A stretch of DNA of 59,250 bases from Kiritimatiellia bacterium. GTDB taxonomy: Bacteria > Verrucomicrobiota > Kiritimatiellia > RFP12 > UBA1067. The notes beneath the pieces are model-generated. The model was given only the letters and a program-made list of their open reading frames with translations, was not told the origin of the DNA and did not search any database. This document shows positions 2,319-18,215 of the stretch, piece after piece (the first letter of the stretch is position 1; each line of letters opens with the position of its first letter). A program made the position numbers and the translations under genes. Location of the stretch: the NCBI GenBank assembly GCA_045535455.1, contig JAZSLQ010000089.1, positions 1 to 59,250 on the forward strand, read 5' to 3'.

Positions 2319-2407
2319 CTTGCGGCTCATTTTCCCTTTAAAATATCCAATCTGCGGCTCACAATGAGCCGCAGATTTGGTATAATAGAATCGTTTTGAG
2401 CCGCAAG
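2319..2407. promoter_or_regulatory. Four-site symmetric operator-like array and extended -10 promoter of Fic gene 1
   Basis: TGAGCCGCA inverted at 2321-2329 and 2353-2361, direct at 2365-2373 and 2397-2405. TGGTATAAT at 2378-2386. Confidence 0.75.
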
Positions 2408-12817: not shown

Positions 12818-12905
12818 AATCGGTCGTAAAGATGGCGGATTTTGGGCAAAATCGGTCGGCATGGCGACCGATTTTGTGGTATAATATGTGACGGACCGAC
12901 CGATT
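12818..12905. promoter_or_regulatory. Four-site symmetric operator-like array and extended -10 promoter of Fic gene 2
   Basis: AATCGGTCG at 12818-12826 and 12850-12858; CGACCGATT at 12865-12873 and 12897-12905; TGGTATAAT at 12877-12885. Confidence 0.75.
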
Positions 12906-15590: not shown

Positions 15591-15611
15591 CAAAATTTGA
15601 AAGAGCCGAGT

Positions 15612-16811
15612 ATGGAATACATCTGGAAATACAAGACACCGGAAGGGTTTGACGATCTCGTGATGAGCGGGGACGGCGAGGCGCTGACAGGGCTCTGGTT
15701 CGCGGGCTCGCGTGACGCCGTGCGGCGCGGGGCAGCCGTCGAATTGCGCGAGACGCCGGTATTCCGCGAAACCTGCCGCTGGCTTGACGAGTATTTCGCC
15801 GGGCGCGACCCCGGCTTTACGCCCAACTATCGCATAGAAGACCTGACCGAGTTTCGCGCGGAAGTGATCGACGAACTCAAGCGGATTCCCTTTGGCGCCA
15901 CGGTGTCGTATGGTGACATAGCGAAGGCAATCTCAAAAAAGCACGGCGGAGCAAAGGTCTCGGCGCGCGCGGTCGGCGGTGCGGTTGGGTGGAACCCGAT
16001 TGGAATAATAATTCCGTGCCACCGCGTAATCGGCGCGGACAATGGCCTTACTGGCTACGGCGGCGGTCTTGGCAACAAGATATCGCTTCTTGCCCACGAA
16101 GGATCGGATCTTTTCGATGTTCGTCTTTCTGCTCCGAAGGACAGGAAGGACGAAATCGACGGAGTGTTCGTTCGGCGGTGTATTCAAGCCGTGAACAGGG
16201 CCGCTGCGCTGCATGGCCTTGGACGGGCGCGATGCGAAGAGAACGATGGCACGACGATATTGCTTGACGCACTTACTGATGGATGGGGTGAGTTTGCCGC
16301 GCCTTTTATCTTCGACGAGTGCAGCGACGACGACGCAAAGTTGCTGCTTGAGAGTTTTATTGATTTTCGATCTCTTTACCAATACGATCTCGCGGTTCAG
16401 CTTTCGCGTCTGCTGGCAAGACGAGGCGCGCTCGTCAGGGCGCGGATGGGACGCATTCTTGCAAAGACCGACTGGAGTTCGTATGGCTCTAACGGACTTT
16501 TGCTCTCGTATCTCGCGTCGAGGAAGGGGAGTGACCCGCTCATTTGCCGACTTTTGGACATAGTGGGCGAAGACAACCGCGACGGACTCTTCATTGCCTG
16601 CTGGTATTCGTCGGGGAAGAAGGTTCAGAAGTGTCTCAAGCGAAAGTTTGAGAGCTGGATCGAAAGCGACGACTCGTGGGGTGGCAGCACTGGCGAGGGG
16701 TGGTGGCTCGGCGCATTCCTTTCGAAATGGACGAAGGAGCAGACATTTTCTTACGAAGAACTCCAATTGCTTACACAGTGGTATCTTGAACACCAAATGC
16801 CTACACCATAG
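15612..16811 (+). CDS. Methylated-DNA-protein-cysteine methyltransferase (Ogt) with an unknown C-terminal domain
   Basis: Active site 'IIIPCHRVIG', plus 'IPFGATVSYGDIA' and 'ARAVGGAVGWNP'. About 230 extra residues follow 'LLAHEG'. Confidence 0.8.
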   Translation: MEYIWKYKTPEGFDDLVMSGDGEALTGLWFAGSRDAVRRGAAVELRETPVFRETCRWLDEYFAGRDPGFTPNYRIEDLTEFRAEVIDELKRIPFGATVSYGDIAKAISKKHGGAKVSARAVGGAVGWNPIGIIIPCHRVIGADNGLTGYGGGLGNKISLLAHEGSDLFDVRLSAPKDRKDEIDGVFVRRCIQAVNRAAALHGLGRARCEENDGTTILLDALTDGWGEFAAPFIFDECSDDDAKLLLESFIDFRSLYQYDLAVQLSRLLARRGALVRARMGRILAKTDWSSYGSNGLLLSYLASRKGSDPLICRLLDIVGEDNRDGLFIACWYSSGKKVQKCLKRKFESWIESDDSWGGSTGEGWWLGAFLSKWTKEQTFSYEELQLLTQWYLEHQMPTP

Positions 16812-16936: not shown

Positions 16937-17007
16937 TGAGAATTCAATGCGGAATTCTTATCCTAGATGGGACTTTTCTTGCCAAGAATTTCCGCATAGA
17001 ATTCTCA
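16937..17007. repeat. Inverted pair of the ~28-bp TGAGAATTCWATGCGGAA motif
   Basis: tgagaattcaatgcggaattctt (16937-16959) and aagaatttccgcatagaattctca (16984-17007). Confidence 0.7.
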
Positions 17008-17015
17008 AAATAAAT

Positions 17016-17093
17016 TTGTAACAACTTCTCCATTGCATTGACGCAGAAAAGTTGTTACAATACTGTCGATATGGGCAGAAAAGTTGTTACAAT
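17016..17093. promoter_or_regulatory. Promoter and repeated operator-like sites of Fic gene 3
   Basis: TTGCAT (17033-17038), 17 nt, TACAAT (17056-17061). 19-bp direct repeat gcagaaaagttgttacaat at 17043 and 17075; inverted core ttgtaacaact at 17016-17026. Confidence 0.65.
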
Positions 17094-18054
17094 CGGTGGT
17101 AAGCCGTTTCATTCCAAGCTTGCGCCATACGAAAGCGAAGTGAAAGAGCTTAAGGCTTCCAGTGCAAGCGTTAGGGCGATTGCGGCTGAGATGTTTGCGC
17201 GGCATGGCATCCAAGTGTCGCACAATGCCGTCGCGTCGTTTTTGCGGACGCATGGTACCAAGCGTCGCAACTTTCTTGACGGAATCGGCGAGGCGAGGCG
17301 AACGGAACTGCTAAAGGCGATTAGGGCGCTTTGGACGCACGACTCTACGGCGATCGAGGGCAATACACTCTCGCTCGGCGATACGATGGCGGTGCTGGAG
17401 TATGGCTTGACGGTGAAGGGGAAGCCGCTCAAGGACCATCAGGATATTGTCGCCCACGCGAACGGCGTTGATTTTGTGCGTTCGCTTCTTGACAAGGGGC
17501 GTATTGCCGAAGCGGATGTCTTGGAGTTGCATCGCATCGTCGTGCCGAATGAAACGCGAGACATATACAAGCCCATTGGAGCGTGGAAGCGCGAGGACAA
17601 TGGCACTTATGGCGCCGAGGGTGGCAGAAGCGTCTACATGCCCTACGCCTCTGCCGATGAAACGCCGAAACTGATGCGCGGCTGGATAAAGGCGTTCAAC
17701 TTGTTGTTTGACGGCATCAAGGGCGCAGACGCTGCGCTTGAGGCGTATTTGTTCGCCCATGTCTCGTTTGTGCGAATCCATCCGTTCTTTGACGGCAACG
17801 GCAGGCTTGCGCGGCTTCTTGCAAATCTGCCGGTTCTCTACGCGGGCTTCCCGCCGATTGTAGTTCCGTCCGAGGCGCGGCTTGAGTACATCCGCGAACT
17901 TTGGGATTACCAGCGCGCGGTGGGCGTAATCAGTCTCGCAAGAAAAGAGCTGCTGCCCGAACCGACACGACTCGACAATCTGCGCCGCCTCATTCGCAAT
18001 TGGTGGCAGACAACTCTCGACCTCGTTGCCGAGGCAAAGGGGAGTTCAAAATGA
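17071..18054 (+). CDS. Fic family protein (canonical motif) with a putative N-terminal HTH
   Basis: 'HPFFDGNGRLAR' and 'STAIEGNTL' motifs; helix-turn-helix-like 'SVRAIAAEMFARHGIQVSHNAVASFLR'. ATG 17071 preferred over TTG 17038. Confidence 0.9.
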   Translation: MGRKVVTIGGKPFHSKLAPYESEVKELKASSASVRAIAAEMFARHGIQVSHNAVASFLRTHGTKRRNFLDGIGEARRTELLKAIRALWTHDSTAIEGNTLSLGDTMAVLEYGLTVKGKPLKDHQDIVAHANGVDFVRSLLDKGRIAEADVLELHRIVVPNETRDIYKPIGAWKREDNGTYGAEGGRSVYMPYASADETPKLMRGWIKAFNLLFDGIKGADAALEAYLFAHVSFVRIHPFFDGNGRLARLLANLPVLYAGFPPIVVPSEARLEYIRELWDYQRAVGVISLARKELLPEPTRLDNLRRLIRNWWQTTLDLVAEAKGSSK

Positions 18055-18215
18055 GTGACGTGATTTCATTCGTGACTTCATTGTTGTTTATTGCATGTCT
18101 GCTTTACGTGCCGATATGCGCGATCGCGGTGTTGGCGCGTAGTCTTGCCACGCCAGAAGACGGCAAAATGACGAGAGAGAATTCGACATTGACTTGGGTT
18201 TTGTGCGTATGGTAA
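18051..18215 (+). CDS. Small hydrophobic ORF (54 aa), possibly a fragment
   Basis: ATGA overlap with the Fic stop; one TM-like stretch; its 3' end overlaps the sod promoter. Confidence 0.3.
   Translation: MSDVISFVTSLLFIACLLYVPICAIAVLARSLATPEDGKMTRENSTLTWVLCVW

What the first reader, a model, noticed from the sequence alone, without database searches (positions are those of the whole stretch)
17016..17093. Third, unrelated Fic gene also has a 32-bp-spaced repeat, with one copy inside its own first codons
Sequence: gcagaaaagttgttacaat at 17043 and 17075 (32 bp apart). The first copy contains the -10 (TACAAT), the second encodes GRKVVTI, and an inverted core lies at 17016-17026. ATG is only 9 nt after the -10, with no SD. 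Inference: the same spacing at a different Fic family suggests a shared geometric rule for HTH-Fic autoregulation.
Basis: partly seen in the sequence, partly recalled or inferred. Interest (0 to 1): 0.65.

Follow-up and report, generated by a model that had tools for sequence, protein, structure and literature searches.

The report
Three-site self-operator of HTH-Fic gene
Three evenly spaced copies of an 11-bp DNA word cover the promoter and first codons of a gene for a DNA-binding Fic enzyme, and this layout, kept in dozens of distant relatives, is very probably the protein's own off-switch.

Summary
GCAGAAAAGTTGTTACAAT occurs exactly at 17043-17061 and 17075-17093, and an inverted copy lies at 17016-17030. 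The conserved unit is the 11-mer AAGTTGTTACA. Its three copies are centred at 17022 (-), 17054 (+) and 17086 (+), 32 bp apart, and they are its only occurrences in the 3.43-Mb assembly.

- **Site positions:** site 1 abuts the -35, site 2 coincides with the extended -10 (TGTTACAAT), and site 3 forms codons 4-7 (KVVT).
- **The gene:** it encodes a 327-aa protein from a rumen Kiritimatiellia MAG. It has a three-helix N-terminal HTH joined to a FICD-like, self-inhibited Fic AMP-transferase.
- **Not a recent duplication:** 86 homologous loci (down to 44% identity) were examined. The three-site layout and the 32±1 bp spacing persist in most of them.
- **DNA-level constraint:** site 3 is held at synonymous positions. 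In distant relatives it lies outside the ORF, over the SD and ATG.
- **Covariation:** operator bases track two recognition-helix residues without exception in 83 loci.

The best reading is negative autoregulation by the protein's own HTH. No binding data or TSS data exist. The closest known case is CccR, which has the opposite domain order and a two-site, 36-bp inverted repeat. I class this as a new variant of a known kind. The proposed "shared 32-bp rule" across Fic families is only partly supported.

The parts
17017..17027 (-). Operator site 1: AAGTTGTTACA on the minus strand, centre 17022, immediately upstream of the -35. The wider inverted arm is 17016-17030.
   Evidence: Conserved in homologs.
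17033..17038 (+). -35 element TTGCAT. It aligns with TTGACA/TTGACT/TTGAAT in orthologs, and only the TTG is conserved. It lies 17 nt upstream of the -10.
   Evidence: Read. Inferred: no TSS data.
17049..17059 (+). Operator site 2: AAGTTGTTACA, centre 17054. It lies inside 19-bp repeat copy 1 (17043-17061) and overlaps the extended -10.
17053..17061 (+). Extended -10, TGT-TACAAT. The invariant central G of site 2 is the G of the TG motif.
   Evidence: Sequence. TACAAT is conserved in all close orthologs.
17071..17073 (+). ATG start codon, 9 nt after the -10 with no SD. This implies a leaderless mRNA or a leader of 3 nt or less.
   Evidence: The ATG is at the same in-frame place in 16 of 16 clade orthologs. 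The gap after the -10 is 9 nt in 12 of the 13 close orthologs and 10 nt in L013. The TSS was not mapped.
17081..17091 (+). Operator site 3: AAGTTGTTACA, centre 17086. It lies inside 19-bp repeat copy 2 (17075-17093) and forms codons 4-7 (K V V T).
   Evidence: Synonymous-site constraint. In distant homologs it lies outside the ORF.
17071..18054 (+). CDS of 327 aa: N-terminal HTH joined to a class II (FICD-like) Fic protein.
   Evidence: Pfam PF02661 E 2e-15. PDB profile hits to FICD (E 9e-31) and BT_2513. AF2 pLDDT 85.6. Foldseek.
17122..17253 (+). Codes for the three-helix HTH (helices at residues 18-29, 34-45 and 51-61). Residues 50-57 (SHNAVASF) begin the putative recognition helix.
   Evidence: AF2. 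Covariation with operator bases. Sub-threshold Pfam HTH_21, HTH_38 and Tc3 hits.
17344..17364 (+). Codes for STAIEGN (residues 92-98), the class II inhibitory-helix motif [S/T]xxxE[G/N].
   Evidence: Invariant in 28 homologs. Aligned to the TVAIEGN stretch of the C. elegans FICD homolog FIC-1.
17779..17814 (+). Codes for HPFFDGNGRLAR (residues 237-248), the canonical Fic catalytic motif.
   Evidence: Invariant H237, P238, F239, D241, G242, N243, G244, R245 and R248.

Best explanation
This is a three-site operator through which the HTH-Fic protein most likely represses its own promoter.

**Proposed mechanism**
- Each 11-bp asymmetric site (AAGTTGTTACA) is read by one N-terminal three-helix HTH.
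- The three site centres are 32 bp apart (three helical turns), so they lie on one face of the DNA.
- Site 1 abuts the -35, site 2 coincides with the extended -10, and site 3 sits about +12 to +22 in the transcribed region.
- An oligomer held together by the Fic domains, with the HTHs on a flexible linker (roughly residues 62-73), would occupy the sites cooperatively. That would cover about -52 to +22, exclude RNA polymerase, and hold a potentially toxic, self-inhibited AMP-transferase at a low steady level.
- The module would then be a one-gene analogue of an autoregulated toxin-antitoxin operon.

**The start codon**
- In this rumen clade the original ATG, which overlapped site 3, was lost. 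An ATG 9 nt after the -10 was taken up instead.
- The mRNA is therefore leaderless or nearly so, and site 3 became codons 4-7 of a disordered N-terminal extension.

**Shown:** the sites, their spacing, conservation, the DNA-level constraint, genome uniqueness, covariation with the helix, and the predicted HTH fold.
**Inferred:** that the protein itself binds, that the effect is repression, the oligomeric state, and the TSS.
For: 1. **Conservation.** The array is kept in orthologs and distant homologs from Kiritimatiellia, Lentisphaerae/Victivallales and Verrucomicrobiota genomes and from environmental metagenomes. Of 86 unique loci, 41 gave a clean (-,+,+) call. In most other loci outside the GTGACA clade the same three sites are there, with extra calls made by the loose scan pattern. 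Site 1-2 spacing is 31-33 bp in 40/41, and site 2-3 spacing is 30-34 bp in 41/41.
2. **DNA-level constraint on site 3.** Of 91 conserved four-or-more-fold degenerate codon columns in 16 clade orthologs, only 4 use a single codon. Two of those are the adjacent V6 GTT and T7 ACA. In homologs at 44-49% identity, the same GTTACA lies upstream of or over the ATG, as GAGGTTACAATG.
3. **Covariation in 83 loci.** Helix position 7 A/S goes with GT[T]G in 18/18. F/Y goes with C (63) or A (2) and never T. Helix position 3 H goes with GT[T]ACA in 74/74, and Y goes with GT[G]ACA in 9/9.
4. **Uniqueness.** The 11-mer occurs only at this promoter in the 3.43-Mb assembly.
5. **Solitary cassette.** No neighbouring gene is conserved across homologs, so the only factor that always travels with the sites is the encoded protein.
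6. **Fold.** AF2 places a three-helix bundle at residues 18-61, and residues 1-13 are disordered.
7. **Precedent.** CccR, a Fic-HTH protein, represses its own promoter through a widely spaced inverted repeat over the -35 and -10 (PMC9755527).
Against: - There is no binding, reporter or TSS data.
- The covariation rests on about three clades, so it amounts to few independent events.
- Three sites do not fit a simple symmetric dimer, and no fourth site was found at 16990 or 17118.
- The HTH assignment is by predicted fold only. The Pfam hits are below cut-off and the Foldseek hits for the isolated domain are not significant (E about 1-3).
- Site 1, upstream of the -35, could equally support activation at low occupancy.
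- Site 3 tolerates GTGACA in lineages whose helix carries H, so the base-to-residue code is not strict.
Confidence: 0.7

Rival explanations
1. The sites are bound by a different, unlinked host regulator rather than by the Fic protein's own HTH.
For: No direct evidence identifies the binder. The N-terminal domain has no significant family match.
Against: The sites travel with the gene through different genomic contexts and several phyla, with no conserved neighbour. The 11-mer is found nowhere else in the genome, so there is no wider regulon. The operator variants follow the cassette's own helix residues.
Confidence: 0.1
2. Site 3 acts at the RNA level, as a translational operator or structure at the 5' end of the mRNA, and is not a DNA operator.
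For: Site 3 always lies in the early transcript. In distant homologs it overlaps the SD and ATG (GAGGTTACAATG).
Against: Its sequence equals sites 1 and 2, which lie outside or at the edge of the transcript. Its distance to site 2 is fixed at about 32 bp whatever the position of the start codon. In L053, and probably in L251 and L259, it is inverted at the same distance, which makes sense for duplex DNA but not for RNA. No complementary partner exists in the transcript.
Confidence: 0.05
3. The repeats are recombination or transposition sites for a transposase-like HTH, connected with movement of the cassette.
For: The best, though non-significant, fold and Pfam resemblances of the HTH are to transposase and small-terminase HTHs. 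Homology between loci begins near site 1, and the flanks differ between genomes.
Against: There is no recombinase or DDE domain. There is no copy of the site at the 3' end or anywhere else in the genome. The sites align precisely with the -35 and -10 elements. No close homologs occur on viral contigs.
Confidence: 0.05
4. The repeat is a recent, functionless local duplication.
For: In this lineage, and in the 98% relative L042, sites 2 and 3 are identical over 19 bp, 8 bp more than the conserved 11-mer. This suggests local homogenisation.
Against: The three-site array is present across homologs down to 44% identity. The spacers between the copies are unrelated. Site 3 is under synonymous constraint.
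Confidence: 0.02

Closest known systems
CccR of Yersinia pseudotuberculosis (Fic-HTH autorepressor; PMC9755527; PDB 7XUX)
   Same: It is one polypeptide with a Fic AMP-transferase domain and an HTH. It represses its own promoter through widely separated sites lying over the -35 and -10, and dimerisation positions the HTHs far apart.
   Different: - The domain order is reversed: the HTH is C-terminal in CccR and N-terminal here.
- CccR has two 10-bp inverted sites 36 bp centre to centre. Here there are three 11-bp sites at 32 + 32 bp, and the third is direct and lies inside the transcript and ORF.
- The sequence relation is marginal and limited to the Fic core (E 9e-4; Foldseek E 1e-5).
- CccR is a T6SS-secreted effector. 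There is no evidence for that here.
FICD/HYPE and C. elegans FIC-1 (class II Fic; PDB 4U04, 6I7G, 5JJ6), and BT_2513 (3CUC)
   Same: These are the closest solved Fic domains (E 9e-31 to 7e-27; Foldseek E 1e-14 to 1e-11). They share the inhibitory TxxIEGN helix and the HPFxDGNGRxxR motif.
   Different: FICD carries a membrane anchor and TPR repeats in place of the HTH and is not a DNA-binding protein. Nothing is known about operator control in that group.
The two wHTH-Fic paralogs in the same window (genes at 2418 and 12917) with four-site operators
   Same: They also have an N-terminal DNA-binding domain followed by a Fic domain. Direct repeats 32 bp apart lie over a sigma-70-type promoter (earlier notes e1-5228165 and e1-5228170).
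   Different: - They share only 23-25% identity, confined to the Fic core.
- Their catalytic His is replaced (QPFxDGNKR).
- They have four 9-bp sites laid out as two direct and two inverted, with a tight central palindrome. This gene has three equally spaced sites.
- They have an SD-led mRNA, not a leaderless one.
Autoregulated type II toxin-antitoxin operons (for example phd-doc, where Doc is a Fido-fold toxin)
   Same: The promoter of a toxic enzyme is shut off by a DNA-binding module belonging to the same genetic unit, often through several operator sites.
   Different: There is no separate antitoxin gene here. The inhibitory helix and the DNA-binding domain are both fused to the enzyme.
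PADLOC candidate and known single-gene Fic defence systems (PDC-S04, SoFic)
   Different: The similarity covers only the Fic part. A defence function is untested, and the N-terminal HTH and the operator are not part of those models.

Membership tests
Fic/Fido AMP-transferases (PF02661) | Pfam Fic domain above the gathering score | tested here: met
   57.8 bits against a cut-off of 24, E 2e-15.
Fic/Fido AMP-transferases (PF02661) | Catalytic motif HxFx(D/E)GNGRxxR | tested here: met
   HPFFDGNGRLAR at residues 237-248. H, F, D, G, N, G, R and R are invariant in 28 homologs.
Fic/Fido AMP-transferases (PF02661) | AMPylation activity | not testable with these tools
   This needs an enzyme assay.
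Class II Fic (intramolecular N-terminal inhibitory helix) | [S/T]xxxE[G/N] motif N-terminal to the Fic core in the same chain | tested here: met
   STAIEGN at residues 92-98 is invariant. It aligns with the TVAIEGN stretch of the C. elegans FICD homolog FIC-1.
CccR-type Fic-HTH autorepressors | Fic domain and HTH in one polypeptide | tested here: met
   The AF2 model shows a three-helix bundle at residues 18-61 followed by a Fic fold. The domain order is opposite to that of CccR.
CccR-type Fic-HTH autorepressors | Widely spaced inverted repeat spanning the -35 and -10 of its own promoter | tested here: met
   Sites 1 and 2 are inverted, 32 bp centre to centre, and flank the -35 and -10. CccR uses 36 bp.
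CccR-type Fic-HTH autorepressors | Sequence homology to CccR, including its DNA-binding domain | tested here: not met
   There is only a marginal Fic-core match to 7xux (E 9e-4, no stretch passing on its own). The HTHs are at opposite ends and are unrelated.
CccR-type Fic-HTH autorepressors | Demonstrated binding to and repression of its own promoter | not testable with these tools
   This needs EMSA, footprinting or reporter assays.
Type II toxin-antitoxin operon | A separate adjacent antitoxin gene co-transcribed with the toxin | tested here: not met
   No partner ORF is conserved upstream or downstream in 34 homologous loci.
Leaderless mRNA genes | The transcript starts at, or within a few nt of, the start codon and has no SD | tested here: inconclusive
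   The ATG is 9 nt after the -10 with no SD, and this is conserved in the clade.
PADLOC PDC-S04 / SoFic defence candidates | Match to the family HMM | tested here: met
   PDC-S04 E 3.2e-29 and SoFic E 3.6e-20, over the Fic part only. An anti-phage function was not tested.

The most novel reading that the evidence does not exclude
The 32-bp period may be a protein ruler rather than mere helical phasing. In this reading, Fic-domain oligomers present flexibly tethered HTHs at a fixed repeat of about 105-110 Å, so that operator distance is conserved but site orientation is not. Two points fit this: site 3 is inverted at the same distance in L053 and probably in L251 and L259, and the same 32 bp recurs in two other HTH-Fic families. 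Because the FICD-type oligomeric state governs enzyme activity, occupancy of the three-site operator would be coupled to the on/off state of the AMP-transferase. The result would be a one-protein toxin, antitoxin and repressor switch whose release from DNA and enzymatic activation are the same event.
Probability: 0.15. Interest if true: 0.75.

Novelty: new variant of a known kind. Interest (0 to 1): 0.5.

Why it matters
Only one Fic-HTH autorepressor, CccR, has been characterised.

- **A large unstudied family.** This work predicts, from comparative data alone, a full operator architecture for a family of FICD-like bacterial Fic proteins: 2456 protein clusters at E ≤ 1e-20 among the 8000 candidates scored, all annotated only as "Fic family protein". 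The N-terminal DNA-binding domain matches no Pfam family.
- **Directly testable predictions.** It gives a recognition code (A55 or F/Y with T or C, H51 or Y with T or G) and a spacing rule (32±1 bp).
- **Operator position follows the promoter, not the ORF.** The start codon moved across the operator, so in this clade the operator is also coding sequence.
- **Annotation consequence.** Gene callers often begin these genes inside the promoter.

Tried and rejected
- **Fourth site by symmetry:** the sequences around 16990 and 17118 do not match the motif. The ACTTTTCT word at 16972 (I5) is out of register.
- **Second promoter in copy 2:** the scan flagged TCGATA-16-TACAAT ending at 17093. The final T of that hexamer is not kept in homologs (TACAAA, TACACG, TACAGG), so I rejected it as a conserved promoter.
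- **TTG at 17038 as the start (338-aa ORF):** rejected, because it lies in the -35 region. Longer public gene calls simply translate the promoter (CYN = TGT TAC AAT).
- **Each site as a small palindrome for a dimer (TTGT-T-ACAA):** the 3' AA is not conserved in sites 1 and 3, so the site is asymmetric. This pseudo-palindrome also caused spurious mirror hits 4 bp from the real sites in my loose scan.
- **Classifying the HTH:** Pfam hits were below cut-off. Foldseek on the isolated domain was not significant.
- **Phage carriage:** the IMG/VR scan found only Fic-core matches at 36% identity or less, with no N-terminal domain.
- **Metagenome scan with the full N-terminal alignment A3:** It worked with subset A4.
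- **Conserved partner gene:** none was found.

Full report
**1. The observation**

- GCAGAAAAGTTGTTACAAT occurs exactly at 17043-17061 and 17075-17093, 32 bp start to start.
- An inverted copy, TTGTAACAACTTCTC, lies at 17016-17030, with 14 of 15 positions complementary.
- The 13 bp that follow the two direct copies are unrelated, so this is not a simple 32-bp tandem duplication.
- AGTTGTTACAA with up to one mismatch gives three hits in the window, against a mean of 0.30 in shuffles, and no shuffle reached three.
- The 11-mer AAGTTGTTACA occurs three times in the whole 3.43-Mb, 277-contig assembly. All three are here, against about 0.6 expected.
- TACAAT at 17056-17061 is preceded by TGT, which makes an extended -10. 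TTGCAT lies 17 nt upstream at 17033-17038.
- The ATG at 17071 follows the -10 by 9 nt, with no SD-like word between them.
- Copy 2 is read as G R K V V T I.

**2. The gene**

The gene at 17071-18054 encodes 327 aa.
- **Fic domain.** Pfam finds only a Fic domain (E 2e-15).
- **Catalytic and inhibitory motifs.** The catalytic motif HPFFDGNGRLAR (residues 237-248) and the class II inhibitory motif STAIEGN (92-98) are both present. Both are invariant in 28 homologs.
- **Closest solved structures.** By sequence profile these are FICD/HYPE and its C. elegans homologue (E 9e-31 to 1e-23) and BT_2513 (E 7e-27). CccR (7xux) is marginal at E 9e-4. Foldseek on an AF2 model (pLDDT 85.6) gives the same order.
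- **N-terminal domain.** Residues 1-13 are predicted disordered. Residues 18-29, 34-45 and 51-61 form a three-helix bundle joined to the Fic domain through a lower-confidence linker.
- **Type of HTH.** The bundle resembles transposase and small-terminase-type HTHs only weakly. Pfam HTH_21, HTH_38 and Tc3 score below cut-off. Foldseek gives rmsd 1.1-1.4 Å over 40-45 residues but E of about 1-3. I therefore call it an HTH by predicted fold, not by family membership.
- **Defence-model similarity.** PADLOC models PDC-S04 and SoFic match the Fic part.
- **Host.** Record titles of near-identical contigs place the host among rumen Kiritimatiellia.
- **Copy number.** The genome holds 11 Fic genes, but only this one belongs to this family.

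**3. Comparative evidence**

I collected 34 unique full-length homologous loci from genomes and 52 more from metagenomes. The genome loci come from Kiritimatiellia, Lentisphaerae/Victivallales and Verrucomicrobiota and range from 98% down to 44% identity.

- **Conserved block and spacing.** The conserved block is the 11-mer AAGT[T/C]GTTACA. Measured centre to centre, the window's sites lie at 17022 (-), 17054 (+) and 17086 (+), which gives 32 + 32 bp.
- **Layout across loci.** Among the 86 loci, 41 gave a clean (-,+,+) call. Spacing between sites 1 and 2 is 31-33 bp in 40 of 41. Spacing between sites 2 and 3 is 30-34 bp in 41 of 41. In most other loci outside the GTGACA clade the same three sites are there, together with extra hits that my loose pattern produced: mirror hits 4 bp from real sites, caused by the pseudo-palindrome TGT[T/A]ACA, and a few stray matches further upstream.
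- **Exceptions.** One sub-clade, with GTGACA sites, has only the inverted pair, 34 bp apart. In L053, and probably in L251 and L259, the third site is inverted but lies at the same distance.

**4. Site 3 is constrained as DNA**

- In 16 orthologs of the window's clade, codons K4, V5, V6 and T7 use a single codon each wherever that residue is kept (AAA 12 of 12, GTT 11 of 11, GTT 16 of 16, ACA 16 of 16). The conserved residues of the next 35 or so positions, Met aside, use two to four codons.
- Gene-wide, only 4 of 91 conserved columns with four-or-more-fold degeneracy are single-codon. Two of these are the adjacent V6 and T7.
- In homologs at 44-49% identity the protein starts at MPGKP. There the same GTTACA lies in the 5' UTR, directly over the SD and ATG (GAGGTTACAATG), still about 32 bp from site 2.
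- The site is therefore positioned relative to the promoter, not relative to the ORF.
- In the rumen clade the old ATG is gone (ACAATC here). An in-frame ATG 9 nt after the -10 is present in 16 of 16 orthologs, and length changes downstream come only in whole codons.
- The next in-frame Met, M41, would delete two HTH helices. The ATG at 17071 is therefore the only sensible start, and the mRNA is leaderless or has a leader of 3 nt or less.
- Public gene calls of 338-371 aa start further upstream and translate the promoter (CYN = TGT TAC AAT).

**5. Who binds**

- **Nothing else travels with the sites.** No neighbouring gene is conserved, and the flanks differ between genomes from just upstream of site 1. 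The 11-mer has no other copy in the genome.
- **The operator variant follows the protein's third helix.** In 83 loci, helix position 7 A/S goes with GTTG in 18 of 18. F/Y goes with GTCG in 63 loci or GTAG in 2, and never with T. Helix position 3 H goes with GTTACA in 74 of 74, and Y goes with GTGACA in 9 of 9.
- **Caveats.** This partition corresponds to about three clades, so the number of independent events is small. Site 3 also tolerates GTGACA in some H-bearing lineages.
- **Conclusion.** Together with the CccR precedent, I take autorepression by the protein's own HTH as the best explanation, at confidence 0.7.

**6. Mechanism and open points**

- Site 2 coincides with the extended -10. 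Its invariant central G is the G of the TG motif, so occupancy should exclude sigma.
- Site 1 abuts the -35, and site 3 lies at about +12 to +22.
- Three sites at three-turn intervals lie on one DNA face, which suggests cooperative binding by an oligomer.
- Three sites do not suit a plain symmetric dimer, and I found no fourth site. The flexible linker and the tolerated inversion of site 3 suggest that distance matters more than orientation.
- In this lineage, and in its 98% relative, sites 2 and 3 are identical over 19 bp. That is 8 bp beyond the conserved core and too much for chance. It points to local homogenisation or to lineage-specific selection on the flanks, and it is unexplained.

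**7.

- The two other Fic genes in the window do have 32-bp direct repeats. I read tgcggctca at 2321 and 2353 with tgagccgca at 2365 and 2397, and aatcggtcg at 12818 and 12850 with cgaccgatt at 12865 and 12897.
- Their Fic cores are distantly homologous to this one, at 23-25% identity.
- The same number in different HTH families is intriguing. However, the layouts differ, a sub-clade of this family uses 34 bp, CccR uses 36 bp, and 32 bp is simply three helical turns. I rate the "shared geometric rule" as partly supported.

**8. Novelty and score**

- This is a new variant of a known kind, the Fic-HTH autorepressor.
- It differs from CccR in four ways: a different domain order and HTH type, a FICD-like active Fic domain, a three-site equal-period operator, and a third site that doubles as coding sequence after a start-codon shift.
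- All functional steps remain inferred.
- Interest is 0.5.

are listed under Tried and rejected.

Noticed in passing
window 16937-17007: Two inverted copies of a dispersed motif (about ATGAGAATTCnATGCGGAAAAATCTTG) form a strong hairpin between the upstream gene and the Fic promoter (-28.1 kcal/mol, z -4.8). The 17-nt core recurs at roughly a dozen places in the genome within 2 mismatches. These include window 38914, 39286 and 40219, and contigs C39, C100, C207, C210 and C246. Its function is unknown. It could be an insulator or terminator-like element, or another regulator's site.
   Followed up: partly
window 18051-18215: A 54-aa ORF with a hydrophobic N-terminus overlaps the Fic stop codon (AATGA). 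In the 98%-identical relative L042 the same ORF runs to 145 aa, so the window's copy is truncated. The first 126 bp have an 88% copy on contig C15 (93% over the first 97 bp), about 1.6 kb from the catalytic-domain match of another Fic gene. It is not conserved next to other homologs.
   Followed up: partly
window 2321-2405 and 12818-12905: The two other Fic genes have four-site arrays (two direct and two inverted) with 32-bp outer spacing over TATAAT promoters. Their Fic motif reads QPFxDGNKR instead of HPFxxGNGR, as seen in the alignments.
   Followed up: partly
public proteins P0001, P0005, P0025 and P0060 (relatives of window 17038-18054): Automatic gene calls for this family often start upstream of the real ATG and translate the promoter. 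The -10 appears as the residues C-Y-N. This gives inconsistent lengths of 325-371 aa.
   Followed up: yes
window 15597-16811: The upstream gene carries a methylguanine-DNA-methyltransferase DNA-binding domain (PF01035) in its first 170 residues. This is followed by about 230 residues with no Pfam match.
   Followed up: no
loci L056, L062, L064, L065, L261-L264 and L266: A sub-clade whose proteins start MK(G/S)SSS and carry TYNAVFSF in the recognition helix uses TGTCACGA/TCGTGACA sites. It has only the inverted pair, 34 bp apart, and no recognisable third site.
   Followed up: partly
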